A DNA stretch of 61,936 nucleotides from Ignavibacteriota bacterium (GCA_003162635.1 PMNE01000030.1:23920-85855), one strand, 5' to 3'. Shown: positions 23,671 to 61,286, numbered from the stretch's first letter. Program-made: numbers and translations. Notes: a model not told the origin generated them from the letters alone.

Positions 23671-23673
23671 GTG

Positions 23674-29841: not shown

Positions 29842-29855
29842 GGTGAGAATTTACG

Positions 29856-45626: not shown

Positions 45627-45661
45627 TGCACCTCCCAGGAAGACCCACACGACTTTCTCGT

Positions 45662-45677
45662 TTCAACATGCGTGCCA
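45662..45677 (-). promoter_or_regulatory. Sigma54-type promoter candidate upstream of ccmF
   Basis: Minus strand TGGCAC-GCATG-TTGAA. Perfect -24 element and spacing; the -12 element is TTGAA instead of TTGCW. Lies 36 nt upstream of the ccmF ATG. Confidence 0.45.
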
Positions 45678-47521: not shown

Positions 47522-47528
47522 GGTCGTC

Positions 47529-48749
47529 TCACCCTCTCTTTGGTCCATGGCAATATCCGCAGAAACCCTTCCCGGCGACCCCCCCCGGATGGGCATTCAT
47601 GTCGGTGTGGCAATTGTAGCAGGTCGCGCCGGGGTCGGTATGCCACGAGCCATGATCCTGCGAGCCGGCAAAGCCCGCGGGATGAGTCTTTGGATCCGTA
47701 CCGCGAATGCCGTCTGCATCGACATGGCACGTGATGCACACCGGGTCTCCCCCGCGTGCATCATGACAGGTCATGCAGCTTTCAATATCGCGCCGAGCCA
47801 ACTCCGCATGGCGTCCGCCCCCGGAGCCGACTCCAAGAGTCGTGAACCCCGATCCGATATGCGAAGCGGGGACCTGGCCCGGGGTCAGGCGATCGCCCTC
47901 GGCATGGCAACGCGCGCAGAAATCCTGCGCCGAATGGCACGTGAAGCAGTCAGATGACTTTGCCCGCGCGTCGATTCCGTGCGTGTAGCGGTAGTTCATG
48001 GAGTGCACGGTTTGCAGGGTCATCTTTTTCGGTCCCTCTTTTCCCGCATTGTTTCGCGGCGATGGCTCGGTCATCAGAGCGCTATTCCCCAACTGGAGGA
48101 GTTCTCCGCCGGCATGACACCCTGCACAGAAATCCTGGGAGTGGCACGTGACGCAGCGTACCTCCAGCGATCCGAGGCGCGTGAATCTCTTGTGGTCCTT
48201 CTTGAAATCCGCCACCAGGTGATCGTCGGGGATCAGATTGACGAAATTTGTATGGCATGCTTCACAGGTCTTCGTCGCCCGGACGTCATTATGACACGTC
48301 GTGCAGGTCGCCATGACGGGCATATTCGCCGGCCCGGCGTAGTCCGCCTTTTCCAGCCCCTGATGGCACGTCGTGCATGCGACGTCCGTCATCTCTATAT
48401 GCTGCTTGTGGGAGAACGTGATATCGCGCTCCGGTGCAGCCGCGGCGTGCATGTTCGTGGTGTCCTTATGACAGTACGCGCATGCGTTGTTGATCTGTTC
48501 TTCATGACATCCGACGCAGCTTTCATGGTTGCTCCGGAGATTGTCCGAAGCTTTCGTACTGGTCGAAGCCCCCTTGTGGCAGTCAATGCATGCAGCGCCC
48601 AGTTCCGTGACGTGGTGTGCATGCGAGAATTTCAGCGAACTCTTGTCGTCGTTGTCCGGCCAGCCCGCCGGGGCGCTCACTTTGCGAGCCACTGCTGTCA
48701 CCAGTGTGGCAATAAGGGCCACCGCGATAAAACCGTATCGGTATTTCAT
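47529..48749 (-). CDS. 14-haem c-type cytochrome (c7/c3-like repeats), periplasmic
   Basis: 14 CxxCH motifs in 406 aa. N-terminal hydrophobic signal/anchor MKYRYGFIAVALIATLVTAVA. FSHxxH...CxxCH units. GAGGAGG RBS. The ATG overlaps the upstream stop (TGATG). Confidence 0.9.
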   Translation of the reverse strand: MKYRYGFIAVALIATLVTAVARKVSAPAGWPDNDDKSSLKFSHAHHVTELGAACIDCHKGASTSTKASDNLRSNHESCVGCHEEQINNACAYCHKDTTNMHAAAAPERDITFSHKQHIEMTDVACTTCHQGLEKADYAGPANMPVMATCTTCHNDVRATKTCEACHTNFVNLIPDDHLVADFKKDHKRFTRLGSLEVRCVTCHSQDFCAGCHAGGELLQLGNSALMTEPSPRNNAGKEGPKKMTLQTVHSMNYRYTHGIDARAKSSDCFTCHSAQDFCARCHAEGDRLTPGQVPASHIGSGFTTLGVGSGGGRHAELARRDIESCMTCHDARGGDPVCITCHVDADGIRGTDPKTHPAGFAGSQDHGSWHTDPGATCYNCHTDMNAHPGGVAGKGFCGYCHGPKRG

Positions 48750-50056
48750 CAGTGGGCCTCCTCGGAAAAAAGTGACAGGCGTTCGGCAAACCAATAGAGA
48801 AGTCGGACCTGTAGGCGCATGTCGTGATCATAGAGCCTGTTTTTCATCCATTGCCCCTGGACGTCGAAGGAGAAGCTTCGGAGCGGGCGGACGGTGGCAC
48901 CCAGAAGAACGGCAAGCGCATTATCCCTGGGCGAATCAGCGCTCAGGCGATAGGAGACCAGAGAGACGCCAAGAGACGGCAGCAGCGTTCGATCGAAGAA
49001 CGGATACGTCCCCTCCGCATTGAACGACGTCAGCTCGCCGGCAAACCCGCTGCTTCCGGTGTATGTCACACTCCCGTAACCGCCGTTGACGCCCAGTGTC
49101 CATCGCATACTGTTGTCATCGGTGTAGCTCACGGATCCGAGCTTCCCGAACACGCGCACCATCGGTGTGACAATGTATTCGACCCCGCCCTCAATTTCGG
49201 TGGTGGAGCTCGCTGCAAACGCCGAGAAGATGGAATTGAAGGCGATCTGGGGTTTCCGGTAGAAGACGTCCCCCGTGACATCCAACGATGGCATCACGTG
49301 GACGCGAACGCCCCCCTCGCCCCTGGATGTTTCGGAGAAGTTGAAATCGTAATCGTACCTGCCATAGGCCGTCAGGAGGTCGCCGCACAGGTAGGAGGCA
49401 TCAACGCTTCCGAGCTGGCGGGCCAAAGACGTCCCGGAGATATAGTATGGCACAGGAATGCCAAGGGAGTCTCGTGCGCGTGTCGTCCAGTAAGGATCGT
49501 ACTCCTCGTGCCGGTTCATATAGCTCAGGCCGATACGGGCTTCGGGCACAAGCGTGGTAACGACCTGCCCGCCCACATTGATGTTATCGTGCCAATCGCT
49601 CCGCACCCCCGTGTACTCCTCCTTCACCGTCGACCCACCGTATCCGGTGACGGTGATTTTATCATCCAGAAGGCGTGCCCGGGCCGTGAGGCCGTCGATA
49701 TTCCCGTTCCCGACCCCTGCGAACACCGCTTGGCGGCCGAGACTCAGGTCGAGGGTCCTGCTGAAGCCGGTCCACGTCGCATAGAGGTTGTAGAATCGGA
49801 CGCGGCCCACGTCCCCGAACGAATTTGCTCCGTTCATCACACCCTGCGCGAAGGTGTGGAATACAAAATCGCCCTGAGCGACCGACAACTGCACGGTCTG
49901 ATATGCGCGCAGGTACGCCTTTGAGACGCCGACGGTATCGTACTGCTCCCAGGAATAGAACGACGTCGTGAAACGTCCATTAACGAGCTGGGCCGGGAGC
50001 GATGCGACGGCCGTCACCAGCAAAAGCGCCAGAAGAAACAAGCGTTTCTCGTTCAT
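48749..50056 (-). CDS. Porin-like outer-membrane beta-barrel candidate
   Basis: Signal peptide MNEKRLFLLALLLVTAVASLPAQ. No Cys or haem motifs. Many short segments with alternating hydrophobic residues rich in Y/G/S/T (VRFYNLYATWTG, IGLSYMNRH, YGRYDYDFNFS, RLQVRLLYWF). Confidence 0.6.
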   Translation of the reverse strand: MNEKRLFLLALLLVTAVASLPAQLVNGRFTTSFYSWEQYDTVGVSKAYLRAYQTVQLSVAQGDFVFHTFAQGVMNGANSFGDVGRVRFYNLYATWTGFSRTLDLSLGRQAVFAGVGNGNIDGLTARARLLDDKITVTGYGGSTVKEEYTGVRSDWHDNINVGGQVVTTLVPEARIGLSYMNRHEEYDPYWTTRARDSLGIPVPYYISGTSLARQLGSVDASYLCGDLLTAYGRYDYDFNFSETSRGEGGVRVHVMPSLDVTGDVFYRKPQIAFNSIFSAFAASSTTEIEGGVEYIVTPMVRVFGKLGSVSYTDDNSMRWTLGVNGGYGSVTYTGSSGFAGELTSFNAEGTYPFFDRTLLPSLGVSLVSYRLSADSPRDNALAVLLGATVRPLRSFSFDVQGQWMKNRLYDHDMRLQVRLLYWFAERLSLFSEEAH

Positions 50057-50089
50057 GGTGTACTGCCTTTCAGTACGGCTTCGAGGAAA

Positions 50090-50132
50090 GGAAGGAAAAA
50101 ACAGGGAGCCGGGGGAACACCGACGACCCGGC
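50090..50132 (-). terminator. Weak internal hairpin/attenuator between the tetrahaem and porin-like genes
   Basis: GCCGGG (50108-50113) / CCCGGC (50127-50132). The minus-strand transcript continues UCCCUGUUUUUUCCUUCC. Confidence 0.3.
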
Positions 50133-50156
50133 CCCGAGGAGAATGAGGCGACAGCG

Positions 50157-50705
50157 CTACTTCTTTGGTCCGCCATGTTCAATCTTCGCCCAGGCCTCTG
50201 CAAATTTGAATCCCTTGAACGAGGGGCTTCCGGAATTGTGGCACGTCTCGCACACTTTCTTGACATCGTCGCCGACGACAAGACCGGCAGCTTTTGCCTT
50301 TGCCTTGCTTTCGTCATCCTTCTTGTTGTGAAGACCGATAAAACCGGACGCAGCGCCATGGCATGCTTCGCAGGTGACGCCTTCTTCCATCTTGTAGGAG
50401 ACATCGACATTCTTTGCTGTCCCGCCGCCGGACACATGGCACTTCAGGCATTCGGGGCTCTCAGAGGCGGGCTTCGTCAGACCCCTCTTCTTCGCAATCT
50501 CTTCTGCTGCCTTCGACTTCAATGTTTCAAAAGCCATTGCATGGGGGCTCTTTTCCCACACGGCATAGGCAAGCCCGCCCATCTTCTCGATTTTGTGGCA
50601 GGCCATGCATCTCTTGACCCCGACAAACTTGTTCTCCGCAGTTGTCACGCCGCTCACACAGGCCACTGCCAGAGCGAGAGCAACGATTCCATGGATGGTT
50701 TTCAT
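50157..50705 (-). CDS. Periplasmic tetrahaem c-type cytochrome
   Basis: CMACH, CLKCH, CEACH, CETCH. Signal MKTIHGIVALALAVAC. GAAGGAGGA RBS. Confidence 0.85.
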   Translation of the reverse strand: MKTIHGIVALALAVACVSGVTTAENKFVGVKRCMACHKIEKMGGLAYAVWEKSPHAMAFETLKSKAAEEIAKKRGLTKPASESPECLKCHVSGGGTAKNVDVSYKMEEGVTCEACHGAASGFIGLHNKKDDESKAKAKAAGLVVGDDVKKVCETCHNSGSPSFKGFKFAEAWAKIEHGGPKK

Positions 50706-50773
50706 GCTGATGATCCTCCTTCGATTGTTTCTGGTGCTTGCGATGCAATGCGTGGTCAGACTTGCTCCGCGGG

Positions 50774-52225
50774 TCAACGTTTCTCGATCCGGCGGATGTA
50801 GAGATACAACGATGCCGCCAATATACTGATTATCAGGGTCGAAATGCCAAGGCCTATCCTTCGAAAGATGTATTCATCCAGCGCTCCCTGAGCTTCGATC
50901 GCAACGGAAGCCGACACCACAAGACCCTTGTCGACCGCAGTCGCAAACCGGGGAGCGTTGAATGCGTGAACGGTGGTCCGGGCTTCGAGTCGTGCCTGAT
51001 GGATATCCCGCAGCCGGTACTTGGCCTCCGAGATCTCCATCCCTTCCTGTTCTGCCTGCGCCACAAGTGCCTGTGCGCGCTGCTCCGACAACTCCAGGCT
51101 GTCAATCTGCAGGCGCATAACCTGCGCGGCAGAGTATCCCTGCGGATTGTCCGTCGGGGTATGGCAGCGGCTGCACACTGCATCGGACGACACGCCAAGC
51201 AGCGTGCTGGTTGCCGGCTCAATGTCATGATTGCCGTGGCACGTTTCGCACTCGGGGAGATGCCTTTCGTCGAACGCCTGCTTGTGCGGGCTTGCCGCAA
51301 AGAGATCGGCATTCAATGAATGGCAAATACCGCAGACCTTCGACACAGACTCGATGTCGGGCGGCGCCGCGCCGTGATTGCCATGGCAGCTATTGCATGC
51401 CGGGGCACCGAGATCGTTCTTCTTGAGAAGTGCAATGCCGTGCACGCTTCGCGTGAATTTTTCGTATTGATCCGTTGGAATGCCATACGGCTTCATGTAC
51501 GCCGCGTTGCTGTGACAGTTCGCGCATGTGGACGGCAGGTTCACCGGGAATACCTTTGAACGAACGTCTTTGACGGGAAGGATGCCGTGCGTTCCGTGGC
51601 AGCTCACGCACTCTGCCACTTTCGCATCGCCACGCGCGTTCTTCATGCCGTGCACGCTCGTCCGGTATTTCTCCCTCTGGTCGACAGGGAGGGCGGGATT
51701 ATATGCCCGCATATACGTCGCGTTGCTGTGACACGAGGAACAGGTCGCAACGATCTTCAGCGGGGAGACGGGTGAAGCAGGATCACGGACGGGCACGATG
51801 CCGTGCGCGCCATGACAGGTCGTGCACTGCACGATACGTTCCTTCCCGGAGATTGATTTCTGTCCGTGCACGCTCTCCTTGAGAAGCGCGAACTGGTTGG
51901 CAGGGAGCACGACATGATAGCCGGCCATCCGAACGGAATCCGCGTGGCACGCAGCGCATCGCGCGGAAATGACGTCGCCCTTCGGAACCCCGATGAAGTT
52001 CCCCTCTTTGTTCATTGCTTTCTCGGGGTCGTCCGTTGTCGCGTCTCCTCCGTGGCATCCGGCGCAGGTGACACCCGCACGGTGGTGAATGTCATGCGCG
52101 AATTGCGTCGAGGGTTTGTCGGCGATTGCCGTATGGCATTCGAAACACTTGTCCGCGCCCATTCCCACCCGCGTCCCCGCAAGGATGAGTGCCGCGACCG
52201 CGAGTCTCCGTATGCGCAGGATCAT
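50774..52225 (-). CDS. 11-haem c-type cytochrome with C-terminal coiled-coil and TM anchor (cytochrome c subunit of the Rieske/cyt b complex)
   Basis: 11 CxxCH motifs. Repeated module SVHG-X10-12-CxxCHGxHG. C-terminal [25 protein letters not shown] overlap with the cytochrome b gene. Confidence 0.88.
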
Positions 52226-53301
52226 AGAACCCAGCCCAGGATGGTGAAGGCGATGATATACATGACAGCACAGAGTCCCGCGTAGGAGAGTGCGCGGTTG
52301 CGTTCACCCCGTGCGCTCCTGCGATCCCAGAACGGGATCAGCAGCCACAGGAGTCCGGCGAGGGAGAACACAAAGACGCCGAGAACTTCACCGTCGATAA
52401 ACCCTATACGCGCCGGAATGAACTTCAGGGTCTGGAACATGAACAGAAAGTACCACTCCGGTCTGATGCCCGACGGCGCCGAGGCAAACAGATCGGCTTT
52501 CTTTCCCAACTCCCACGGGAAGAAGACGGCCAGGATCGCCAGCAGGTTCAGGACAATGAGCCAGAGGAGAAGATCGCGGAGGAGGAAGTTCGGAAAGAAG
52601 GGCATCGTCTTTCGGCCATTCGCAGGGAGAGCGGCCACGTGCAAGGGTTCGCTCATCCCTTGCCGCTGGACCAGCAGCAGATGAATTCCGAGCGCCACCG
52701 TAAAGATGCCTGGGAGCACCGCAACGTGAAAACCGAAGAACCGGGAAAGCGTCGCTCCGGTCACGTCCTCCCCCCCGCGGAGGAAAATCATCAGCGGCTT
52801 GCCGACAACGGGAATCACGCCCGCGATGTCCGTCCCCACTTTCGTTGCAAAGAATGCAAGTTCGTTCCACGGCAACAGGTATCCGCTAAACCCGAACCCG
52901 AGCGCAAGGAAGAACATGACCATCCCGGTCATCCACGTCAGCTCCCGCGGAGCGCGATATGACCGCTCGAAAAACACGCTGAACATGTGGACGAGCACTG
53001 CCAGGATGAACAGATTCGCTGACCAACTGTGAATCGACCGGATCAGCCAGCCGAACGACACTTTCGAAGAGATGAACTGGATGCTTTCGAAGGCCAGTTG
53101 CTCGCTCCCCTTGTAGTATAAGAGAAGGAGAATTCCCGTGACCACCTGAATCAGGAACAGGAAAAGCGATACACCTCCGAAATAGTACCAGATCGAATGC
53201 CGGTGCACCGGGACGTATTTCTTCCCCATGAACTCAACGAGGTTGGCGAGCTGGAGGCGCTCGTCAAGCCACGCGTAGAGTCTTTGCCAGGCACGTTGCA
53301 C
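52222..53301 (-). CDS. Cytochrome b (fused b6 + subunit IV type) of a Rieske/cyt b complex
   Basis: Motifs [35 protein letters not shown] and [13 protein letters not shown] start after GAGGA. Confidence 0.9.
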
Positions 53302-53309
53302 GGAGATCC

Positions 53310-53765
53310 TCAGACGTTTTTAGAAACAAACACATCACCCCCCTGAATCGATACCCGGTACGGATCGAGCGGACGCGGAGGCGGTCCAGCGATGTTGCGC
53401 CCGTTCAGATCATATCTACCGTTATGGCAGGCACACCAGATCGAACCAAAGTCCTTTCTGTATTGCACAGTGCAGTCCAGGTGTGTGCACGTCGCGGAAA
53501 ATGCACGAACCTCGCCCGCCGCTGTTCGCACGACGATAACAGGTTTGTTCCCGAAGCGCACAATCACGCCGCTCTCCTTCGGGAGAGAACTCAGCGTTCC
53601 CACCTTGACGCTCGTGACTTCCACCTCCGCCTGTTTGGGAGGACGAAGGTATGAGAATAACGGATACGCGATAGCTGCGAGCCACGCGACGAATCCCCCC
53701 GCGAGGATGTACCCCAGGAAGGATCGACGACTCGTCTGCTGCTTGAGTTGGGGAGGATACTCCAC
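53310..53765 (-). CDS. Rieske [2Fe-2S] protein with Tat-type signal
   Basis: [11 protein letters not shown] twin-arginine motif. Cluster boxes CTHLDCTV and [12 protein letters not shown] start after AAGGA. Confidence 0.9.
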
Positions 53766-53913
53766 GAATTCGTCCTTACAGGAAATTATCAGAAATCAAC
53801 GTGGTCGACCCAAAAGACGAACTCCTTTCGGAATCCGCGATGCGCAGGGACCCGACTGCCGGAGTGTCGTGCAGGAGGCGCACCCTGCCTGGCGACCGCT
53901 CCCGCGGATGCCA

Positions 53914-55407
53914 TTACTGAGCACTGTGGCAATCACTGCAGTTTGTTTCCTTCCACGCATCACCGATGTCCACGGGATGCTTGTACTCCACGCCGTCAAG
54001 CGACAGGCGAAGCTTGTCGTTGGACAACTCCTCCGCAAGAATCGTATGACAGGTATTACAGTCCCGGGACAACACTTTCCCTTCTTCCGAAAGGTGTTTC
54101 CCGTCGTGACACCGGAAGCAGCCCGGATAGTACATATGCCCGATATTGTCCGGAAATCTCCTCCAGCTCACCTGCATCTCGGGGAAGTAATTACGGGCGT
54201 AGATCTTCCTGACCTCGCCGATCGCCTGCTCGATCGCCGCGTGCTGCGTTGCGGCCACCTGGGGATACTGTGTACGATACGATTCTTCGATGAACGCGCC
54301 GATACTGTCCAGCGCCCCCTGTTGCGTCGCGTACGGCATTTCCAACGCTTTCACGGCGAGGCTCTTGATCGACGGGAGAGCGGGGTCCACCCATCCAAGT
54401 GCCATAACGTGATCAACTGATCGCGCAGGCGGATGGTAAATGTGGGTCGGACGGTTATGACAGTCGATGCAGTCCATTTTCCTTTTCGGCAGCTTCGCGA
54501 CTTCCTCGTCGCTGACCGGGTTATCGCTGGAACGGTAGACGGACACGCTCCCATCGGGTCGACGCACCTGCACCCACGGAATCACCTGACGAGTCGAGTC
54601 GGCAGGCGCATACGTCACCTGATTCGCGATGTTCATGTGCCAGTGGATTCCCGATGTCGGCCCCGCTTCACTATTGCCCCCTCCGATTTTCACCAGGAGG
54701 TTCAGACTCCATCGTGTATTGTGCTCGTCCTGCAGAAAGTATGTGTTGACGAGAAGCTTTTCACTATAGAAATGCATCGGCCAGTGGCATTGCTCGCAGG
54801 TTTCCTGCGCAGGGCGGAGATTTTCGATCGGGGTCGGGATTGGCCGTGGATATTTGTTGAAGAGCGTTGCATAGACCTGATATGTTCCCGAAAGCTTGGA
54901 ACGCACGAACCAGTCAGCACCCGGCCCGATGTGACACTTGACGCACCCAACGCGTGCGTGCGCCGAATATTGGTACGCAGTGTACTCCGGAGCCATAACC
55001 TTATGACATGTTTCCCCGCAGAACTGATCCGAATCGGTATGTTCGTATGCCTGATAGCTTCCGAAGGCCGAGAAGAGCAGGAGCAGAATCAATCCTCCGG
55101 CCACATAGAGGAAGGCCCTCCGGTGCCGCGGATCGTTCATGTCGACCCTGGGCAGGTGCATTTCCGACGGCCTCCCTGCGCGGAGTCTCCGGTGTTCGCG
55201 AATGACGCCGACCAGCGCCAGCAGAAGGCCGAGGACAAGAATCGCCGGCAGCAAGACAAAAGCGATCACCCCCATGTACGGTTTCGGCGCCGCGGAGAGC
55301 GATTCCAGAAGCATCAGAAAGAGCACGAGCCCGAAACTCACCGCAGCGACGGCGCCGCCGGCAAGGGTCAGCGAATTGTAAAATGACGAGGGTAATGCTC
55401 GTTTCAC
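53914..55407 (-). CDS. ImcH-like inner-membrane multihaem cytochrome (3 TM + 7 haem motifs, NapC/NirT-related)
   Basis: Three N-terminal TM segments. CGETCH (CX3CH) plus CVKCH, CEQCH, CIDCH, CFRCH, CNTCH, CSDCH. GTGA overlap with the upstream gene. Confidence 0.8.
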   Translation of the reverse strand: MKRALPSSFYNSLTLAGGAVAAVSFGLVLFLMLLESLSAAPKPYMGVIAFVLLPAILVLGLLLALVGVIREHRRLRAGRPSEMHLPRVDMNDPRHRRAFLYVAGGLILLLLFSAFGSYQAYEHTDSDQFCGETCHKVMAPEYTAYQYSAHARVGCVKCHIGPGADWFVRSKLSGTYQVYATLFNKYPRPIPTPIENLRPAQETCEQCHWPMHFYSEKLLVNTYFLQDEHNTRWSLNLLVKIGGGNSEAGPTSGIHWHMNIANQVTYAPADSTRQVIPWVQVRRPDGSVSVYRSSDNPVSDEEVAKLPKRKMDCIDCHNRPTHIYHPPARSVDHVMALGWVDPALPSIKSLAVKALEMPYATQQGALDSIGAFIEESYRTQYPQVAATQHAAIEQAIGEVRKIYARNYFPEMQVSWRRFPDNIGHMYYPGCFRCHDGKHLSEEGKVLSRDCNTCHTILAEELSNDKLRLSLDGVEYKHPVDIGDAWKETNCSDCHSAQ

Positions 55408-57569
55408 AAGAGACTTTCCTCCGTTCCTTCCTGTTCGGTCTGCGTCTCCCGGCGCAATTGTTCAAGCTCCAGCGGATGCTCCTCTTCCATCTCCCCTTCC
55501 GTCAGTGTTCCCTTCCAGAAAGCAAGATTGATCGGGTATGTGTCTGGATTGAAGATGACAAAGTACATGTGCCAGACCAGAATGGCAAGTGTTGCCAGCC
55601 AGGCCTCGTAGTAATGGATGGTCCGGGCGATATCCCAACCGAGTTTCGTCAGCAGACCAAGGAATGTGTTATCGAACCACATGATCACTCCCGTCGCTGC
55701 CATCACCACGACACCCCAGACAAGGGCCCAATATTCGCTCTTTTCAATGTAGCTAAACCGGCCGAATTGAGGTTTCTCTTTCGCGAAGCCGAGGTTGTAC
55801 TTCAAGACCCCAAACGCATCAGCAATATCCTGCGGCACCGGTGCCAGGTCGCGGAGAAGCTGCCTGCCTCGGCGTGTACAGAAGACATAGAAGAGGTGAT
55901 ATAGACCTGCCAGCACCAGCACCACGCCGGCGCATCGGTGAATGATACCGCGGGCGGCAAAAGCAAACGGGATGACGTTCCGGATCGGCACGACCCACCA
56001 GGCATCGGGGAATTTCAGCGCGAACCCGGTGAGCGCCAGCAGAAAGAAGCTGACGAGAAGAAGGCCATGTTGGATCCTCTCCCCGAGTGACATGCGCAAG
56101 TACAATCGGTGACCCGGCCTGTGCGGCGGCAAACCACCGCGACGCATCAGCAACCGGCGCTTCGACTTCCAGACGAAATCGAGCGCGTTGTGGACCGCCA
56201 TCCCCCCGATCACGACCGCAATCATGATGAAGTACGTCGAGGAGACGAGGTAAAGAACCCGGTCGTTCCCCGAACTTGCCAGGACGTGGACATTCCCTTT
56301 CGTAAAATTCTCGTTGGCGCCGGGGTGGCATGTCCCGCACGTCTTCGCAAGGTTCTTTTTGTTCACGCGTGAGGTTGAATCACTCGACGCCTTGATGTCA
56401 TGAACGCCGTGGCAGCTCGCGCAATTGGCGACTTCGACATTTCCCGCCCGTCCCGCGAGACCGTGGTAGCTGTCGGCAAAACTCTGGAAGCGATCGCTCG
56501 CAAGCCCGTACTTTTCGGTCAGCTTTACCGACGCGTGGCAGGGAGAACAGACCTGGGCCGAGACGTTCTTCGCCGCAACAGGCGAGGCGGCATCCTTGGG
56601 GGAGAGGATGTTGTGCTCGCCGTGACAGTCCGTGCAGGTGGCCGACGCCGTGACGCCCCGCGCAAACGACGTCCCGTGGATACTCTCTTCATACTGCTGC
56701 AGTATCTCTCCATGGCAGGCGCCGCATGTCCCGGCGATGTGTGCACGGGAAACCCGGGAATCGGGACGTGATCCTTTCTTCAGGTCGTGGCTCCCGTGGC
56801 AGTCAATGCAGGTCGCAGCCGCGTCATTGCCGTTCTTCACGGCCCGTCCATGGACGCTCCCTTCATAGCTCGACACGAAGGCGACCGACGGTCCCACCCG
56901 CGCACGAACATCAGGGTTATCGACATGACACCGGAGGCATTCCACCTGAATGTTCTTCCTGTTGGTACGTGACGAATCGTCGCCGGAGGGAAGAACGTCA
57001 TGCGCGCCGTGACAATCGATGCACGTCGGCGCCGCATTCACCCCGGCTGCCGCCGCAAGACCGTGGTCGGAGGCGGAATATTCCGCAGCCGCTGCGCCAT
57101 GACAGCGAATGCACGACTCACGCACAAGCGTGTTCTTTGCCTCTGCCCCCCCGCCGGAAATCCTCTCGATCGCATGCTTCGTGTGGCAATCGGCGCACGT
57201 CAATGCCCCTTGCGCTCCGTGCATCACGCCATGGACGCTCTTTCCGAATTTTTCTGTCTGCTTGTCGCTGTGGCAGGTGAGGCACTGCACGGGATGGATC
57301 TTCTTCGCGTGGGGAAGCTCAGCGGGGCTGAAACCGAGGTGACATGCGACGCAGGCAACTTCGCCATGGGCCGACTTCTTGAAGGAGAGGGGATCAACAT
57401 GCAGGGACACCGTTTTTCCCCTGCGCACCATGGTGGCTCCCTGCTCCCCGTGACATGCAAGACATTCGTCGTTCCCCTGCGCCCGGAGGCAGCACGGCAG
57501 CGCCGCCATGAGCACGGCCGCACATCCAAGCATCAACCCGATTCTCTGTCCTCGTGACCGAGTCATCAT
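55404..57569 (-). CDS. CbcL-like fusion: 13-haem periplasmic c-type cytochrome domain + FdnI/HydC-type dihaem cytochrome b membrane domain
   Basis: 13 CxxCH motifs. The C-terminal approximately 270 aa carry TM segments and conserved His (ERIQHGLLLVSFF, IIHRCAGVVL, ARTIHYYEAW, LVWHMYFV). Start re-called at MMTRSRGQRIGLMLGCAAVLMAALP (signal peptide). The alternative ATG at 57647 would bury the signal peptide. Confidence 0.82.
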   Translation of the reverse strand: MMTRSRGQRIGLMLGCAAVLMAALPCCLRAQGNDECLACHGEQGATMVRRGKTVSLHVDPLSFKKSAHGEVACVACHLGFSPAELPHAKKIHPVQCLTCHSDKQTEKFGKSVHGVMHGAQGALTCADCHTKHAIERISGGGAEAKNTLVRESCIRCHGAAAAEYSASDHGLAAAAGVNAAPTCIDCHGAHDVLPSGDDSSRTNRKNIQVECLRCHVDNPDVRARVGPSVAFVSSYEGSVHGRAVKNGNDAAATCIDCHGSHDLKKGSRPDSRVSRAHIAGTCGACHGEILQQYEESIHGTSFARGVTASATCTDCHGEHNILSPKDAASPVAAKNVSAQVCSPCHASVKLTEKYGLASDRFQSFADSYHGLAGRAGNVEVANCASCHGVHDIKASSDSTSRVNKKNLAKTCGTCHPGANENFTKGNVHVLASSGNDRVLYLVSSTYFIMIAVVIGGMAVHNALDFVWKSKRRLLMRRGGLPPHRPGHRLYLRMSLGERIQHGLLLVSFFLLALTGFALKFPDAWWVVPIRNVIPFAFAARGIIHRCAGVVLVLAGLYHLFYVFCTRRGRQLLRDLAPVPQDIADAFGVLKYNLGFAKEKPQFGRFSYIEKSEYWALVWGVVVMAATGVIMWFDNTFLGLLTKLGWDIARTIHYYEAWLATLAILVWHMYFVIFNPDTYPINLAFWKGTLTEGEMEEEHPLELEQLRRETQTEQEGTEESLL

Positions 57570-57815
57570 TGCGAGTATCAAAGGAACTTGGTCCGAACCA
57601 TGAGCCAGATCATCCCAAAGCGCGCCTAAAAACGGGTCAATGAGCATGCCAAGAACAGGGTATTGAATTTGTAGAGAATTGCCACATTTGCGATTGAGAG
57701 TGGGGTTTTATTCTCAAAACTGCAAGAGCAGGGTGTGCCTCTTTTCAGGCATGGGAATGGAAAGAGAAAAAATGGGTAAGAAAGGGGAAAAGCGGAATAG
57801 TATTCAGCGATGAGA

Positions 57816-58250
57816 TTAAACGGCGAGGAGTCTCTCTATCCGTCCTGAAACAGCGGAAATTTCGACCGGTTTGTAGAAGACCGAATCGACATGATCCCTG
57901 ATCGCGCGGTCCAGCGCCGCTTCCCGGGTATTGTACACGTAGAGCATGATCACAGGAAGGCATCCGCGGACGGACTTCAGCGAGTCGAGTGTGCTGATCA
58001 ATCGCTCAGAGGGAACGGCATCGACGATCAACAGATCGGCTGTGTGTTCGACGGCAAGAGACACCACCGTTGCCAGATTCGTCGTCGTGACAACGTGGAA
58101 TCTGTCCTGAAAGAGCATGAACAGACTAAAGCAGAGGTTGAGGTCCGGACTGAAGATGAGGATAGTTTTCTTATCTCCAGCCTGCTTGTCAACCCGGGCG
58201 CCACCGTTCACGCCGTGAGAATTTCCCTTCTCGTATGTCACGCCATCCAT
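57816..58250 (-). CDS. Stand-alone receiver (REC)-like domain protein
   Basis: KKTILIFSPD...ADLLIVDAVP...PVIMLYV...FYKPVEI matches the CheY-like fold pattern. The first ATG is 58250, after GGAGTGGAAG. Confidence 0.6.
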   Translation of the reverse strand: MDGVTYEKGNSHGVNGGARVDKQAGDKKTILIFSPDLNLCFSLFMLFQDRFHVVTTTNLATVVSLAVEHTADLLIVDAVPSERLISTLDSLKSVRGCLPVIMLYVYNTREAALDRAIRDHVDSVFYKPVEISAVSGRIERLLAV

Positions 58251-58372
58251 AGCTTCCACTCCGGGGGCAAATCGTTCCCGAGAGCCCTGAACCCGGGCTG
58301 TTCGATACAAAAAGGCCAGTCGGCAGAACTTGATAGCTATCCGCCTCGGGAACGGTTCCCGGAGTTTGTTTT

Positions 58373-58388
58373 TTCAAGATATGTGCCA
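58373..58388 (-). promoter_or_regulatory. Sigma54-type promoter candidate upstream of the REC gene (and possibly the multihaem operon)
   Basis: Minus strand TGGCAC-ATATC-TTGAA, the same non-canonical -12 element as at 45662-45677. Confidence 0.4.
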
Positions 58389-58504: not shown

Positions 58505-59869
58505 TCATGCCTGCAAAGGGATATCGAGCTCTTCGATCTTCCGATAGAGGGAGGAGAGACTGATTTTCAGCGCACGAGCGGTTGCTTCCTTGTTGAACTG
58601 GTTCGTCCGCAGTACGTGGCTGATGTACTGCCGTTCAAACTCATCGACGGCTTCCTTCATGGACCTTCGCCCGTCAAACGAGTACAGGGAATCCTGTTTC
58701 TGTTCGATGAACCCGGGGAGCTCGTTCTTGGTGATCAACATTCCTTCGGCAAAGATGACGGCCCGTTCGATGACGTTCTCCAGCTCGCGGATCTCCCCTT
58801 TCCACGAATGGGTCGTAAGCGATTTCATCACCTCGTTATCAACCCCGCGCACATTCTTGTTCATCTCCAGCGCGTATTTGCTCACAAAGTGCTCGACCAG
58901 AAGGGGGATGTCGTCGGGACGTTCCGCCAAAGTCGGGAGTTTGAGTTCGACGATGTTCAACCGGTAGAAGAGATCCTCCCGGTAACGCCCCGCCTCCACC
59001 TCTTTGGAGAGGTTCTTATTGGTGGAGGCAATAATGCGGACGTCGATCGTGTGCGGCACCGCGGATCCGACAGGCGTCACCTCCTTTTGTTCGATCGCGC
59101 GAAGAAGTTTCACCTGGAGGTGGAGGGGTATCTCGCTCACCTCGTCGAGGAATATTGATCCCCCTTCCGCCGCCTTAAAGAATCCTTCCTGATCGGCGTT
59201 GGCACCGGTAAATGATCCACGCTTGTGGCCAAACAGCTCGCTCTCAAAGAGGTTCTCCACGATCGCACCGCAATTCACCGCGATGAACGGCTTGCCGTTC
59301 CTCCTGCTGTTATAGTGGATGGCGCGAGCGACGAGTTCCTTTCCTGTTCCGCTCTTCCCGTAGATGAGGACGGTCCCGTCCGTCGCAGCCACCTTCTTGA
59401 TCGTGTCGAACACCCGGTGCATCGCCACGCTCTGCCCGACCATCTTGGTAAAGTCGTACTGCCAGTTCAGCTCGCTCCGCAGGAGCTTATTCTCGATGGT
59501 GAGGCGGCGGCTGGCGAGAAGCCGTCGCACCTTGACCAGCAGCTCGTCGAACTCCACCGGCTTCAGGATGTAATCCATCGCTCCCTTCCGCAGCGCGGCG
59601 ATTGCTGTATCGATGGAGCCGTACGCGGTGATGATCATGACGAGCGTTTCCGGGTGCGTGTGCGCGACATGCTCGAGCAGTTCAATCCCCTTCATCTCCG
59701 GCATTTCAAGATCTGTGAGGACCAGGTCAAAGTCGCCGGTTTTCAGTATCTCAATGGCCGCCTTGCCATTGGGGGCTTCCTTCACGTCATAGCCCTCCTT
59801 GGTAAGGACGAACGAAAGCGACTCCCGGATGATGTCTTCATCGTCGACGATCAGAATCGATTCAGCCAT
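58505..59869 (-). CDS. Sigma54-dependent response regulator (NtrC family: REC + AAA+ + Fis-type HTH)
   Basis: ILIVDDE receiver, Walker A GKSGTGKE, GSFTGA sigma54-contact loop, C-terminal HTH NKEATARALKISLSSLYRKI. Confidence 0.9.
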   Translation of the reverse strand: MAESILIVDDEDIIRESLSFVLTKEGYDVKEAPNGKAAIEILKTGDFDLVLTDLEMPEMKGIELLEHVAHTHPETLVMIITAYGSIDTAIAALRKGAMDYILKPVEFDELLVKVRRLLASRRLTIENKLLRSELNWQYDFTKMVGQSVAMHRVFDTIKKVAATDGTVLIYGKSGTGKELVARAIHYNSRRNGKPFIAVNCGAIVENLFESELFGHKRGSFTGANADQEGFFKAAEGGSIFLDEVSEIPLHLQVKLLRAIEQKEVTPVGSAVPHTIDVRIIASTNKNLSKEVEAGRYREDLFYRLNIVELKLPTLAERPDDIPLLVEHFVSKYALEMNKNVRGVDNEVMKSLTTHSWKGEIRELENVIERAVIFAEGMLITKNELPGFIEQKQDSLYSFDGRRSMKEAVDEFERQYISHVLRTNQFNKEATARALKISLSSLYRKIEELDIPLQA

Positions 59870-61286
59870 TCTCGAATTCCCTTCCGTTCAATGGAAGAAT
59901 CATGCAAAAGGAAGTGCCCATGCCTCGCGTACTCGTTACCGTCAGGTCGCCGTGAAAGCTTCTCACGATGCCGTAACTCACCCAGAGACCCAGTCCCGTC
60001 CCCTCCCCGACTCTTTTGGTCGTAAAGAAGGGCTCAAAGATTTTCGGCAGGTCTTCGGGGAGAATCCCTCCGCCATCATCCGTAATTACCACGCGCGCGT
60101 TTTCCTCATCGCATCCCACCTCCGAAACTATCGTGCCCCGCTTCCCCTCCAGGGCGTCGACCGCATTCAAAAGGATATTGATGAACACCTGTGAAATCTG
60201 ATCCTGCACGAGTGCCATCAGGGGAATCTGCCGCCGGACGTTGGTAACGAAGGTGACGCTCTTGGCCTTTTTTCCCATCTTGACGATTTCCACCGCTTCC
60301 GACAGGGTTCGGACAAGATCGGTGGGCTGCACCTGGTAGTTCGACGGCCGTGAAAAATCGACAAGGTCGCGGATAATCTTCGTGATCCGGTGGACCTGCG
60401 ACTGGACAAGGCCCAGCTTCTCCTTCGCAAAATCGTCGGACAGGGTGCGGAGAAGGACCTGGACGATCGACGAGATGGAGGCAAGGGGGTTCCCGACCTC
60501 ATGCGCGATCCCCGCCGCCAGCGTGCCGATGCTCTCCATCTTCTGCGAATGCATCAGCTGCTGTTCCAGGTGTCTCTGCTCGGTGATATCCTGGTGCGTT
60601 CCGAGGAAGCCGACGACGCTCCCGGAGGAATCAATGATCGGGGAGATCAACAGATAGGTAAACAGCGGCGCGCCGTCTTTCCGCCTGTTCTCGACTTCTC
60701 CGGTCCAGACCTTCCCCTCGTTGATCGTCTGCCACATCTTCACCCAGAATTCCGGCGGGTATTTTTCGCTGGAGATCTTGTTGGGATTTGCGCCAATCAG
60801 CTCCTCGTTCGTGTAACCCGTCGTCTTCTCAAATGCCGGATTCACGTACACCATCCGGCCCTGCGCGTCGGTGATCTGGATGGGGTTGACGGTGTAATGG
60901 ACGACGTTCGAAAAACGGAGGAGGTCAAGATCCTTCTTCTTCGACTCCGAAACGTCCCGTGCAATAAGATACAGAAAATCCCTGTCAACACCCCTGATCC
61001 TGCGGATTGAGAGAAGGGCATCGATGACCTTCCCGTCGGCCGCCTTGAAGCGAACCTCCGCCTCGGGAGCCACATCGTTCGCGGGAAGAACAGGAAGGAG
61101 CGGCCGGGGGGAATCGTCCGTCAGGAGCGAGTGGAACGGGATGGGCGCAACGGGGCTTTCCGGAAGCCCCAGAACTTCACGGGCCCTTCTATTACAAAGG
61201 AGCACGTCACGTTCTTCCGATACGACAAAGCACATATCGGGAATGATGTCAATGAAGATGTTCGCTATGTTCTGCTCGAACGGCAT
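59862..61286 (-). CDS. Cytoplasmic PAS-domain sensor histidine kinase
   Basis: No TM segments. Two PAS-like regions. H-box AGIAHEVGNPL, N-box NILLNAVDA, G-boxes TDDGGGI and GTGLGLWVS. 8-nt overlap with the regulator gene. Confidence 0.9.
   Translation of the reverse strand: MPFEQNIANIFIDIIPDMCFVVSEERDVLLCNRRAREVLGLPESPVAPIPFHSLLTDDSPRPLLPVLPANDVAPEAEVRFKAADGKVIDALLSIRRIRGVDRDFLYLIARDVSESKKKDLDLLRFSNVVHYTVNPIQITDAQGRMVYVNPAFEKTTGYTNEELIGANPNKISSEKYPPEFWVKMWQTINEGKVWTGEVENRRKDGAPLFTYLLISPIIDSSGSVVGFLGTHQDITEQRHLEQQLMHSQKMESIGTLAAGIAHEVGNPLASISSIVQVLLRTLSDDFAKEKLGLVQSQVHRITKIIRDLVDFSRPSNYQVQPTDLVRTLSEAVEIVKMGKKAKSVTFVTNVRRQIPLMALVQDQISQVFINILLNAVDALEGKRGTIVSEVGCDEENARVVITDDGGGILPEDLPKIFEPFFTTKRVGEGTGLGLWVSYGIVRSFHGDLTVTSTRGMGTSFCMILPLNGREFENG

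What the first reader, a model, noticed from the sequence alone, without database searches (positions are those of the whole stretch)
53914..57569. CbcL-like and ImcH-like inner-membrane cytochromes are adjacent and translationally coupled
55404-57569 has 13 CxxCH motifs fused to an FdnI/HydC-like cytochrome b domain. This is the architecture of Geobacter sulfurreducens CbcL, which as I recall has nine haems. 53914-55407 has three N-terminal TM helices followed by seven haem motifs, the architecture described for G. sulfurreducens ImcH. In Geobacter the two are unlinked and serve acceptors of different redox potential. Here the two genes overlap by 4 nt (GTGA), which implies co-expression and possibly a physical complex. 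The first ImcH-like haem site is an unusual CX3CH (FCGETCH).
Basis: partly seen in the sequence, partly recalled or inferred. Interest (0 to 1): 0.65.

Follow-up and report, generated by a model that had tools for sequence, protein, structure and literature searches.

The report
Paired ImcH and bc-cytochrome respiratory genes
Two overlapping genes in a peat Ignavibacteriota genome encode a true ImcH-type quinol-oxidising cytochrome and a 13-haem c / two-haem b fusion related to, but not the same as, Geobacter CbcL; this pairing recurs across several phyla and is sometimes fused, which suggests the two proteins work together.

Summary
On the minus strand, gene A (55404-57569) has 13 CxxCH motifs plus an FdnI/HydC-type dihaem cytochrome b domain. 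Gene B (53914-55407) has three TM helices, one CX3CH and six CxxCH. They overlap by GTGA.

- B is a genuine ImcH-family member. Its CX3CH is the known family hallmark, not an oddity.
- A has CbcL's architecture but belongs to a sister clade. It has 13 haems rather than 9 and five TM helices rather than six. Its b domain is 27-29% identical to Desulfuromonadales CbcL-type sequences, against 44-60% for a second clade absent from this window.

The adjacency is not unique.
- Of 75 informative imcH loci from GTDB genomes, 51 have a cyt b module directly upstream and 64 have one within 10 kb.
- The reverse does not hold. Only 8 of 67 A-type metagenome loci are followed directly by imcH.
- Two natural fusions join a cyt b domain to ImcH. 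One follows a 13-haem gene and one sits in a [NiFe]-hydrogenase operon.

The pair lies in a conserved island with sigma-54-type promoter motifs that also encodes a Rieske/cyt b module and further multihaem cytochromes. Co-expression is likely. A physical complex is plausible but untested.

The parts
59862..61286 (-). PAS-domain sensor histidine kinase, upstream on the same strand
   Evidence: Pfam PAS, HisKA and HATPase_c. The same HK-RR pair precedes the cytochrome genes in relatives L001, L002, L020, L032, L033 and L064.
58505..59869 (-). NtrC-type sigma-54-dependent response regulator (receiver + Sigma54_activat + HTH_8)
   Evidence: Pfam E 2.6e-68 for Sigma54_activat.
58373..58388 (-). Sigma-54-type -24/-12 motif TGGCACATATCTTGAA, between the regulator and the small ORF
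   Evidence: One of only two exact matches to TGGCAC-N5-TTGMW in the window (0.12 expected), but the pattern was relaxed post hoc. Conserved about 1.1 kb upstream of the A-type gene in L001, L002 and L032.
57816..58310 (-). 164-aa ORF with weak receiver-domain similarity
   Evidence: Pfam Response_reg E 0.0035, below the cutoff. Homologues lie at the same position in 7 related loci.
57637..57652 (-). Second sigma-54-like motif TGGCATGCTCATTGAC, just upstream of A's likely start
   Evidence: Read from the sequence. TGGCATG-N4-ATTGAC is conserved 45 nt upstream of the A-type gene in L001, L002 and L032. L010 and L013 have TGGCACAATCCTTGCC at -28. It overlaps the ATG at 57647, which argues for the 57569 start.
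55404..57569 (-). Gene A: 721-aa 13-haem c / dihaem b fusion cytochrome (clade I of the CbcL/MtrH/MtoC superfamily)
56325..57464 (-). A: periplasmic domain with 13 CxxCH motifs (residues 36-415), preceded by a signal peptide (residues 1-31)
   Evidence: Motif positions. 30 His and only 2 Met in the domain, consistent with bis-His ligation.
55551..56264 (-). A: TM1 anchor plus four-helix FdnI/HydC-type dihaem cytochrome b domain (residues 436-673)
   Evidence: AF2 helices 436-476, 495-519, 540-564, 607-635 and 642-672. Foldseek top hit is FdnI 1kqf_C, prob 1.0, TMt 0.70. His501, 544, 558, 652 and 667 are invariant in 84 sequences.
55404..55407 (-). GTGA overlap of A's stop and B's start
   Evidence: An equivalent ATGA overlap occurs in relative L006.
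53914..55407 (-). Gene B: 497-aa ImcH-family inner-membrane heptahaem cytochrome
   Evidence: and Table S3 of PMC6295460.
55039..55374 (-). B: three N-terminal TM helices (residues 12-123)
   Evidence: AF2 helices 12-37, 43-76 and 93-123 with pLDDT 67-91. Hydropathy. K/R-rich loop 69-97 is cytoplasmic.
55003..55020 (-). B: CX3CH first haem site (C130-G-E-T-C134-H135)
   Evidence: Invariant in 35 diverse family members and in 82 locus sequences. Present in 136 of the top 150 family representatives.
53817..53838 (-). Terminator-like hairpin in the 148-nt gap between B and the Rieske gene
   Evidence: Consensus scan only. It may mark the end of an A-B transcription unit.
50774..53765 (-). Downstream Rieske protein (53310-53765), cytochrome b/b6-type (52222-53301) and 11-haem cytochrome with a C-terminal TM anchor (50774-52225)
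   Evidence: Pfam/NCBIfam and motif counts. Syntenic downstream of imcH in more than 15 Ignavibacteriota loci.
46388..50777 (-). c554-like tetrahaem (50157-50777), 435-aa signal-peptide protein with no Pfam hit (48749-50056), 14-haem (47529-48794) and 7-haem (46388-47596) cytochromes. Candidate periplasm-to-outer-membrane conduit.
   Evidence: Syntenic in relatives. An outer-membrane barrel identity for the 435-aa protein is NOT shown.

Best explanation
The stretch is a co-expressed two-gene unit inside a conserved extracellular-electron-transfer island. The host is an organoheterotrophic Ignavibacteriota bacterium from peat or permafrost. Gene B encodes an ImcH-family menaquinol dehydrogenase. 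It has three TM helices and an NrfH-like quinol site at the periplasmic face next to the CX3CH haem 1, with conserved Lys171, Gln177 and Tyr186. Six further haems carry electrons into the periplasm. Gene A encodes a bc-type cytochrome. A signal peptide exports a 13-haem bis-His domain, one TM helix anchors it, and a four-helix FdnI-type domain holds two b haems. Those b haems connect the periplasmic haem chain to a quinone site expected near the cytoplasmic face. Transcription probably starts at sigma-54-type promoters governed by the adjacent PAS kinase and NtrC-type regulator, and B's translation is coupled to A's. I propose that both proteins drain the menaquinol pool side by side, probably in contact with each other. 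They would hand electrons to the Rieske/cyt b-11-haem module's partners, the c554-like tetrahaem and the multihaem cytochromes encoded downstream. B would be the electroneutral exit and A the lower-yield exit, chosen by acceptor potential as in Geobacter. Shown: gene structure, domain content, topology signals, family placement, conserved synteny, and the existence of fusions. Inferred: quinol oxidation by both proteins, physical contact, sigma-54 control, and the final acceptor.
For: Anatomy and topology.
B is ImcH family. Haem spacing is [25,49,109,117,20,40] against GSU3259 [25,49,106,117,20,38], with matching TM positions. B is 44% identical over its full length to a Syntrophus-MAG ImcH that has the exact GSU3259 spacing. 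CX3CH, K171 and Q177 are invariant in the 82 imcH-locus sequences; in the 35 diverse family representatives CX3CH is invariant, K171 is in 34 and Q177 in 27. These residues match H137/Q179/K173/Y188 reported for Geobacter ImcH.
A carries the b-haem ligand set and the FdnI fold.
Pairing seen from imcH: among 81 imcH loci, 38 have a fused multihaem-cyt b gene directly upstream on the same strand and 13 have an unfused or truncated cyt b there. A further 13 have a fused gene within 10 kb. Spacers run from -4 to about 220 nt.
A-type b-domain distances and ImcH distances correlate (Mantel r = 0.87, 0 of 2000 permutations).
Fusions: P0254 is a Ni_hydr_CYTB-ImcH fusion preceded by a 13-haem + TM gene that is 32% identical to A's haem domain with the same motif spacing. 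P0287 is a cyt b-ImcH fusion between a [NiFe]-hydrogenase large subunit and a HycI protease.
Regulation: sigma-54-like motifs are conserved in relatives. Precedent: sigma-54/BccR control of cbcBA in Geobacter.
Expression: metatranscriptome contigs span the A/B junction, for example 55078-55573.
The island is syntenic in relatives. The rest of the window is saccharolytic and fermentative-type metabolism with no hydrogenase or formate dehydrogenase, which fits quinol oxidation as the direction.
Against: There is no experimental datum for any clade I protein. The direction of electron flow through A is inferred from Geobacter CbcL, which belongs to a different clade. The pairing is asymmetric. 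Of 67 informative metagenome loci with an A-type gene, only 8 have imcH directly downstream. In 20 the next gene is a clade II module and in 31 no cytochrome gene follows. A therefore does not need ImcH. In most close relatives a clade II bc module, with or without a c554 gene, separates the two genes. The direct abutment here probably reflects loss of that module. Correlated distances are expected for any two vertically inherited genes. Each fusion protein is a singleton at 90% identity, and their b domains are only distantly related to A's. RNA-library depth is flat across 36 kb, so DNA carry-over cannot be excluded. The -12 element reads TTGA, not the canonical TTGC.
Confidence: 0.45

Rival explanations
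1. Redox loop. A runs in the FdnI/HyaC direction. Its 13-haem domain collects electrons from low-potential periplasmic donors, and its b haems carry them inward to reduce menaquinone at the cytoplasmic face, taking up protons there. ImcH (B) re-oxidises the menaquinol at the periplasmic face, releasing protons outside, and passes electrons to higher-potential extracellular acceptors. The pair would then be a proton-motive module.
For: All solved or characterised homologues of the b domain (FdnI, hydrogenase cyt b) reduce quinone at the cytoplasmic face (discussion; FdnI match). The CbcL/MtrH/MtoC family is proposed to work in both directions (abstract of PMC6295460). In fusion P0287 ImcH is joined to the cyt b subunit of an uptake-type [NiFe]-hydrogenase operon, that is, a quinone reductase fused to a quinol oxidase. 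In L162 a 13-haem module occupies the position that the hydrogenase holds in L163. ImcH alone is electroneutral, so a partner that adds charge separation would explain the strong imcH-to-bc linkage.
Against: Both haem-c domains sit in the same periplasm and could short-circuit. The window encodes no hydrogenase or formate dehydrogenase and looks organoheterotrophic. Geobacter CbcL acts genetically as a quinol oxidase. A-type genes often stand without imcH.
Confidence: 0.25
2. Independent enzymes with no mechanistic coupling. A and B are two alternative menaquinol oxidases, as CbcL and ImcH are in Geobacter. They merely share an island and a regulator. Their abutment and overlap here are a by-product of deletion of the intervening clade II and c554 genes.
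For: Close relatives have 0.8-6.5 kb and one to three genes between the two. A-type genes commonly occur without imcH. 10 of 75 informative imcH loci have no cyt b module within reach, including the Geobacter-like Syntrophus locus L080. imcH is monocistronic in G. sulfurreducens. 4-nt overlaps are common between unrelated operon neighbours (general knowledge).
Against: 85% of informative imcH loci, spanning several phyla, keep a bc module within 10 kb, and 68% have one directly upstream on the same strand. Acidobacteriota keep the A-type gene directly upstream in nearly every sampled locus. Two independent cyt b-ImcH fusions exist.
Confidence: 0.25

Closest known systems
ImcH (GSU3259) of Geobacter sulfurreducens
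   Same: Three N-terminal TM helices. An NrfH/NapC-like region around TM3. CX3CH as the first haem site followed by six CxxCH with nearly identical spacing. Conserved Lys, Gln and Tyr around haem 1. Similar length (497 vs 507 aa). About 44% identity to a Geobacter-group member.
   Different: The gene is not monocistronic. It overlaps a bc-cytochrome gene and sits in a sigma-54-type controlled island. Glu127 of GSU3259 is Asp125 here. Function is untested in this phylum.
CbcL (GSU0274) of Geobacter sulfurreducens
   Same: One polypeptide with a signal peptide, a periplasmic multihaem c domain, a TM anchor and a HydC/FdnI-type dihaem b domain. The His ligand set is present. The last four haem spacings (30, 29, 42, 28) resemble CbcL's (29, 28, 43, 28).
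   Different: 13 haems, not 9. Five TM helices, not six (no C-terminal TM6), ending in an acidic cytoplasmic tail. The b domain is 27-29% identical to Desulfuromonadales CbcL-type sequences, against 44-60% for the clade II proteins of related genomes. A is a sister clade, not an orthologue.
CbcL/MtrH/MtoC family as surveyed by Zhong & Shi 2018 (PMC6295460)
   Same: The family is defined as a multihaem c (3-23 motifs) fused to a HydC/FdnI-like b domain. The 19-haem Ignavibacteria proteins in their Table S2 correspond to clade II here.
   Different: The one A-type partner checked by locus-tag prefix (COS95) is absent from Table S2, and only 2 acidobacterial CbcL homologues are listed against 19 ImcH. 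The linkage to imcH is not discussed, although their own tables place imcH and cbcL one gene apart in a Geobacteraceae MAG.
FdnI / HyaC (HydC) cytochrome b subunits of formate dehydrogenase-N and [NiFe] hydrogenases
   Same: Four-helix dihaem b fold (Foldseek prob 1.0 to 1kqf_C). His ligands lie on helices 1, 2 and 4. N and C termini are cytoplasmic.
   Different: Here the domain is fused to a 13-haem cytochrome c instead of docking to an FeS subunit. The direction of electron flow is unknown.
NrfH / NapC / CymA quinol dehydrogenases
   Same: B's TM3 and first haems match Cytochrom_NNT and NrfH (PDB 2j7a), which have a quinol site at the periplasmic face.
   Different: Those are tetrahaem proteins with a single TM helix and a CxxCH first site. 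B scores far below the NCBIfam NrfH cutoff (53 vs 134 bits).
CbcBA with the sigma-54 regulator BccR (Geobacter)
   Same: A bc-type quinol oxidoreductase operon next to a receiver/sigma-54-activator/HTH regulator, with -24/-12 promoters.
   Different: CbcBA is two proteins in b-then-c order with 7 haems. The regulator there is transcribed divergently.

Membership tests
ImcH family (gene B) | Three N-terminal transmembrane helices | tested here: met
   Hydropathy 15-33, 47-65, 98-116. AF2 helices 12-37, 43-76, 93-123 with pLDDT 67-91. GSU3259 has 13-35, 45-67, 100-122.
ImcH family (gene B) | Atypical CX3CH first haem motif next to TM3 | tested here: met
   CGETCH at 130-135. Invariant in alignment A1. 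Described as a family trait in PMC4251993 and PMC6295460.
ImcH family (gene B) | Six further CxxCH motifs with the family spacing | tested here: met
   Spacing [25,49,109,117,20,40] against GSU3259 [25,49,106,117,20,38].
ImcH family (gene B) | NapC/NirT (NrfH-like) homology over TM3 and the first haems | tested here: met
   Pfam Cytochrom_NNT 43.9 bits (cutoff 24.1), residues 102-186. NrfH 2j7a_C E 8e-4.
ImcH family (gene B) | Conserved haem-1 pocket residues (Gln distal ligand, Lys, Tyr, acidic residue on TM3) | tested here: met
   K171 and Q177 are invariant in 82 sequences, Y186 is Y or F, and D125 aligns with the family's Glu. They correspond to K173, Q179, Y188 and E127 of GSU3259. The numbering offset is inferred, not aligned to GSU3259 itself.
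ImcH family (gene B) | Full-length sequence similarity to Geobacter ImcH | tested here: inconclusive
   The GSU3259 sequence was not obtainable. Proxy: 44% identity over residues 2-496 to a Syntrophus-MAG protein with the exact GSU3259 haem spacing. Near-identical-architecture Ignavibacteria proteins are listed as ImcH homologues in Table S3.
ImcH family (gene B) | Required for reduction of high-potential extracellular acceptors | not testable with these tools
   Needs genetics or electrochemistry.
CbcL proper (Geobacter/Desulfuromonadales orthologues) (gene A) | Periplasmic multihaem c domain fused to a HydC/FdnI-like dihaem b domain | tested here: met
CbcL proper (Geobacter/Desulfuromonadales orthologues) (gene A) | Nine CxxCH motifs | tested here: not met
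   13 motifs. GSU0274 has 9.
CbcL proper (Geobacter/Desulfuromonadales orthologues) (gene A) | Six TM helices, including one at the extreme C terminus | tested here: not met
   Five helices in the AF2 model. 0 of 60 clade I tails have a hydrophobic stretch, against 23 of 24 clade II tails, and the Desulfuromonadales fragments P0392-P0394 end in a hydrophobic C-terminal stretch.
CbcL proper (Geobacter/Desulfuromonadales orthologues) (gene A) | b domain most similar to Desulfuromonadales CbcL | tested here: not met
   P0391-P0396 (one from Desulfuromonas thiophila) are 27-29% identical to A (36% over a 90-residue stretch for P0396), and 44-60% to clade II. These fragments were retrieved with machine-read pieces of a published alignment.
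CbcL/MtrH/MtoC superfamily, broad sense (gene A) | 3-23 haem c motifs plus a b domain with conserved His ligands | tested here: met
   13 motifs. His501, 544, 558, 652 and 667 are invariant across clades I and II. Homology to clade II at E 1e-23 to 1e-31.
Prokaryotic cytochrome b561 / FdnI-HydC (PF01292) | Pfam gathering score and four-helix dihaem fold | tested here: met
   54.3 bits against a cutoff of 30.1. Foldseek 1kqf_C prob 1.0, TMt 0.70.
NrfH/NapC/CymA proper (gene B) | Tetrahaem, single TM helix, curated NCBIfam score | tested here: not met
   Seven haems and three TM helices. NrfH 53.4 bits (cutoff 134.2) and NapC/NirT 15.8 bits (cutoff 310.6).

The most novel reading that the evidence does not exclude
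ImcH and a partner FdnI-type b module (A here) form a menaquinone redox loop. The b module reduces menaquinone at the cytoplasmic face with electrons collected in the periplasm, by a 13-haem domain or, in one fusion, by a [NiFe] hydrogenase. ImcH re-oxidises the menaquinol at the periplasmic face. This would make ImcH-dependent extracellular respiration proton-motive. It could account for why imcH is so often encoded directly behind a bc-type gene.
Probability: 0.25. Interest if true: 0.8.

Novelty: new variant of a known kind. Interest (0 to 1): 0.55.

Why it matters
ImcH and CbcL are used as marker genes for extracellular electron transfer. In Geobacter they are treated as independent, unlinked exits from the quinone pool. 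Levar et al. 2014 stated that finding what interacts with ImcH would improve sequence-based prediction. This analysis gives three leads.
- Outside the Geobacter group, imcH usually sits directly behind a multihaem-c/dihaem-b gene.
- That partner comes in two clades, and only one of them is CbcL-like.
- The b module is sometimes fused to ImcH itself, once within a hydrogenase operon.

This yields a concrete, testable partner for ImcH and a candidate route to energy conservation. It also warns that 'CbcL' calls in metagenomes lump together at least two paralogous families. For peat and permafrost Ignavibacteriota, it outlines a complete, conserved gene island for Fe(III)/humic respiration.

Tried and rejected
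(1) The GSU0274 and GSU3259 sequences could not be obtained. No collection here is searchable by accession, and PDB holds neither protein.
(2) I used machine-read fragments of a published CbcL alignment. The text is visibly corrupted, with rows repeated. The database search with them returned only six short proteins. These were enough to place CbcL-type b domains with clade II but do not replace the full sequence.
(3) Haem spacing alone suggested that A resembles CbcL more than clade II does. I set this aside in favour of the b-domain sequence comparison and the TM6 test.
(4) The RNA evidence is inconclusive. Junction-spanning contigs exist, but depth is flat over 36 kb including unrelated genes.
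(5) The AF2 model of B has pLDDT 54, so it was used only for the TM helices, and no fold search was run on it.
(6) The sigma-54 consensus with up to 2 mismatches shows no enrichment (26 found, 25.9 expected). Only the relaxed exact pattern and its conservation in relatives are suggestive.
(7) Co-folding of A and B was not attempted. The structure tool returns no inter-chain confidence and accepts only window or database sequences.
(8) No Pfam family was found for the 435-aa protein between the c554-like and 14-haem genes. Its outer-membrane porin role remains a guess.
(9) Literature searches found no statement that imcH and cbcL-type genes are adjacent. The library is limited, so absence is not proof.

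Full report
OBSERVATION. Both genes lie on the minus strand. The upstream ORF runs 55404..57647. A sigma-54-like motif overlaps the ATG at 57647, and a typical signal peptide (MMTRSRGQRIGLMLGCAAVLMAALPCCLRA/QG) begins at the ATG at 57569. This protein, A, has exactly 13 CxxCH motifs. It also has a Pfam Ni_hydr_CYTB domain above the gathering score (54.3 bits, cutoff 30.1). The downstream ORF 53914-55407 (497 aa, GTG start) is B. It has three hydrophobic helices, one CX3CH (CGETCH, residue 130) and six CxxCH. The junction reads CTCTTGTGAAACG, so A's TGA and B's GTG share GTGA, and a GGAGGA lies 10-16 nt upstream. B's N-terminal residues are conserved from position 1 in 42 homologues, which validates the GTG start. 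The positive-inside rule places the K/R-rich loops in the cytoplasm (B 69-97; A 467-500 and 565-610). Both haem-c domains are therefore periplasmic.

GENE B IS AN ImcH. Zhong & Shi 2018 (PMC6295460) define the family by three N-terminal TM helices, an atypical CX3CH next to the membrane domain, and five to nine CxxCH. Levar et al. 2014 had already noted the CXXXCH first motif. Table S3 of the survey gives GSU3259 as 507 aa, with motifs at 132, 156, 205, 311, 428, 448 and 486 and TM helices at 13-35, 45-67 and 100-122. It also lists 496-498-aa Ignavibacteria proteins with B's pattern.

- B's motif spacing is [25,49,109,117,20,40], against [25,49,106,117,20,38] for GSU3259.
- An exhaustive profile-free search found 3661 50%-identity clusters related to B, 807 of them below E 1e-30. 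136 of the top 150 carry the CX3CH.
- In an alignment of 35 diverse members, C130, C134 and H135 are invariant.
- K171 and Q177 are invariant in 82 locus sequences. Y186 is Y or F, and D125 aligns with the family's Glu. These match K173, Q179 (the proposed distal ligand of haem 1), Y188 and E127 of Geobacter ImcH (bioRxiv 10.1101/2023.05.03.539133).
- I could not obtain GSU3259 itself. As a proxy, a Syntrophus-MAG protein with exactly the GSU3259 spacing is 44% identical to B over its full length.
- B is not a plain NrfH or NapC. It scores far below the NCBIfam cutoffs, and its only PDB relative is NrfH at E 8e-4.

The 'unusual' CX3CH is thus the family's signature.

GENE A IS CbcL-LIKE IN ARCHITECTURE BUT NOT A CbcL ORTHOLOGUE. 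The AF2 model of A (pLDDT 71) shows one anchor helix (436-476) and four further helices (495-519, 540-564, 607-635, 642-672), followed by a cytoplasmic acidic tail. Its only significant structural match is FdnI (1kqf_C, prob 1.0, TMt 0.70). Five His are invariant in 84 related b domains: 501, 544, 558, 652 and 667.

Among the cyt b modules found next to imcH genes, two clades separate cleanly.
- Clade I is 39-71% identical to A. It has 13 haems in Ignavibacteriota and 9, 11 or 13 in Acidobacteriota.
- Clade II is 26-31% identical to A. It occurs as 19-haem fusions of about 925-953 aa, or split into a multihaem gene (666 aa in L001) and a cyt b gene (281 aa in L001).

To place true CbcL, I took machine-read fragments of the G. 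sulfurreducens CbcL row from the supplementary alignment of PMC9129911. That text is visibly corrupted, so I used it only to fish for real sequences. The six proteins recovered include one from Desulfuromonas thiophila. They are 44-60% identical to clade II but only 27-29% to A, apart from 36% over a 90-residue stretch for P0396. The recovered sequences that reach the C terminus (P0392-P0394) and 23 of 24 clade II proteins carry an extra C-terminal TM helix, matching the sixth TM of GSU0274 at 589-611. None of 60 clade I proteins has it. The window contains no clade II gene. A is therefore a member of the broad CbcL/MtrH/MtoC superfamily but a paralogue of CbcL. The published survey seems to have missed the clade I partner genes. 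The one imcH-bearing MAG checked by locus-tag prefix (COS95) has no entry in Table S2, and only 2 acidobacterial 'CbcL' homologues are listed against 19 ImcH.

HOW COMMON IS THE PAIRING? A scan of one genome per GTDB species with the ImcH profile gave at least 598 hits, and the 80 most similar to B were kept. Together with one NCBI locus, this gives 81 loci:
- 38 have a fused multihaem-cyt b gene directly upstream on the same strand.
- 13 have an unfused or truncated cyt b directly upstream.
- 13 have a fused gene within 10 kb but not adjacent.
- 1 has a cyt b only.
- 10 have nothing despite at least 3 kb of upstream flank, among them the Geobacter-like Syntrophus locus.
- 6 are uninformative.

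Directly linked loci carry labels from Ignavibacteriota/Bacteroidota, many Acidobacteriota, Dadabacteria, Binatia and Zixibacteria; Calditrichota (a clade II gene about 0.3 kb upstream) and Kiritimatiellales (gene order reversed) fell just outside the automatic 'directly upstream' class. Spacers range from -4 nt (L006, ATGA) through 0-40 nt to about 100-220 nt.

The commonest Ignavibacteriota layout is clade I (13 haems), then clade II (split), then sometimes c554, then imcH. The window's direct abutment looks like that layout minus clade II. Distances among clade I b domains track those among the linked ImcH proteins (Mantel r = 0.87). This is expected for co-inherited genes and is not proof of contact. 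Published tables also place imcH (A2X80_11560) and a nine-haem cbcL (A2X80_11570) one gene apart in a Geobacteraceae MAG, without comment.

The reverse survey tempers this picture. Of 80 metagenome contigs with A-type b domains, 67 are informative:
- 8 have imcH directly downstream on the same strand, and 2 have it convergent.
- 20 have a clade II module next.
- 4 have another c-type cytochrome next.
- 31 have no cytochrome gene next.

So imcH nearly always keeps a bc partner, but the bc gene often lives without imcH. Both surveys are 'best 80' samples biased towards relatives of the window.

FUSIONS. Two of the top 150 family representatives carry an N-terminal Ni_hydr_CYTB domain fused to a complete ImcH: P0254 at E 1.5e-22 and P0287 at E 5.5e-25.
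- In P0254's contig, the preceding overlapping gene encodes a 13-haem cytochrome with a C-terminal TM helix. It is 32% identical to A's haem domain over 409 residues, and its spacing [37,23,30,28,30,27,38,28,30,38,37,26] mirrors A's. The same three modules therefore occur as (c+b)|ImcH here and c|(b+ImcH) there.
- In P0287's contig, the fusion sits between a [NiFe]-hydrogenase large subunit (E 7e-185) and a HycI protease. That is the position of the hydrogenase cyt b subunit.

Each fusion is a singleton at 90% identity, so artefacts are not fully excluded. They are nevertheless two unrelated cases with compatible topology.

CONTEXT AND REGULATION. Upstream on the same strand lie a PAS histidine kinase, an NtrC-type sigma-54 activator and a small receiver-like ORF. 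Two -24/-12-like motifs stand before the small ORF (58373-58388) and before A (57637-57652). Both are conserved in the closest relatives. Their -12 element is TTGA rather than TTGC, and the pattern was relaxed post hoc. A sigma-54 regulator also controls cbcBA in Geobacter.

Downstream of B lie, in order:
- a terminator-like hairpin;
- a Rieske protein, a b6-type cytochrome b and an 11-haem cytochrome with a C-terminal anchor;
- a c554-like tetrahaem;
- a 435-aa exported protein with no Pfam family;
- 14- and 7-haem cytochromes;
- a CcmF-like gene.

The island is syntenic in more than a dozen Ignavibacteriota genomes. The rest of the window encodes GH3 glycosidases, transporters, 2-oxoacid:ferredoxin oxidoreductase, acetyl-CoA transferase and HemN. 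The sequence occurs at 98-100% word identity in peat and permafrost metagenomes. Metatranscriptome contigs cover the island and span the A/B junction. Their depth is as flat over the neighbouring 20 kb, so they do not prove co-transcription.

MECHANISM. I commit, at 0.45, to a co-expressed pair of menaquinol oxidases working side by side and probably in contact. B would use a periplasmic-face quinol site and be electroneutral. A would use a cytoplasmic-face site and two b haems to reach its 13-haem periplasmic chain, giving a lower yield. Both would feed the cytochromes encoded downstream.

The main rival (0.25), which is also the most novel reading, is a redox loop in which A reduces menaquinone and B re-oxidises it. 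The hydrogenase-b-ImcH fusion and the strong one-sided linkage favour it. The organoheterotrophic context and the risk of a periplasmic short circuit count against it.

The second rival (0.25) is simple co-location of independent enzymes.

NOVELTY. The families, the CX3CH motif, the variable haem numbers and the wide distribution are all known. I found no report of the following (within a limited library): the conserved imcH-bc synteny, the split of the partner into two clades of which only one is CbcL-like, and the cyt b-ImcH fusions. I rate it a new variant of a known kind, of moderate interest.

Noticed in passing
window 50774-53765 (-): A Rieske protein, a b6/ExtP-like cytochrome b (359 aa, b6 plus subunit-IV parts) and an 11-haem cytochrome with a C-terminal TM anchor form a third quinol-oxidising module directly after imcH. 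It is syntenic in many Ignavibacteriota loci.
   Followed up: partly
window 48749-50056 (-): A 435-aa protein with a signal peptide and no Pfam or NCBIfam match sits between a c554-like tetrahaem and a 14-haem cytochrome. Homologues keep this position in 15 related loci. It may be the barrel of a porin-cytochrome conduit, but this is untested.
   Followed up: partly
window 45662-45677 (-) and 43404-45650 (-): A second exact TGGCAC-N5-TTGAA motif lies about 12 nt upstream of a CcmF-like cytochrome c maturation gene. Haem attachment may be co-regulated with the cytochrome island.
   Followed up: no
L163:1-4297 (Logan contig SRR22507543_87387): In a [NiFe]-hydrogenase operon the cytochrome b subunit is fused to a complete ImcH (771 aa). 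The fusion is flanked by the large subunit and a HycI-type protease.
   Followed up: partly
L162:2726-6465 (GCA_053998095.1): A 13-haem + TM gene homologous to A's haem domain overlaps a gene encoding a cyt b561-type domain fused to ImcH (734 aa). The b module has moved to the other partner.
   Followed up: partly
L001:4170-11494 and similar loci (L003, L005, L013, L016, L020, L032, L039, L064, L077): Close relatives carry an extra CbcL-like (clade II) module between the A-type gene and imcH. It is split into a multihaem gene (666 aa in L001) and a cyt b gene (281 aa in L001). The window lacks it, which suggests a deletion in this lineage.
   Followed up: yes
Tables S2/S3 of PMC6295460: In Geobacteraceae bacterium GWB2_52_12, imcH is A2X80_11560 and a nine-haem cbcL is A2X80_11570, one gene apart. 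Linkage therefore also exists inside the Geobacter family, although the paper does not remark on it.
   Followed up: partly
window 56423 / 51648: One metatranscriptome contig (run X24) joins 56423 to 51648 with 37 unrelated letters in between. This is probably an assembly chimera between similar haem-motif regions of A and the 11-haem gene.
   Followed up: no
window 14052-31253: Three GH3 glycosidases, MFS transporters, a protein with a T9SS C-terminal sorting domain and an oxygen-independent HemN-like gene. These fit a polysaccharide-degrading anaerobe of the Ignavibacteriota/Bacteroidota group.
   Followed up: no
window 57816-58310 (-): A 164-aa ORF between the sigma-54 regulator and gene A shows weak receiver-domain similarity (E 0.0035). 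It is conserved at this position in 7 related loci. Its function is unknown.
   Followed up: partly
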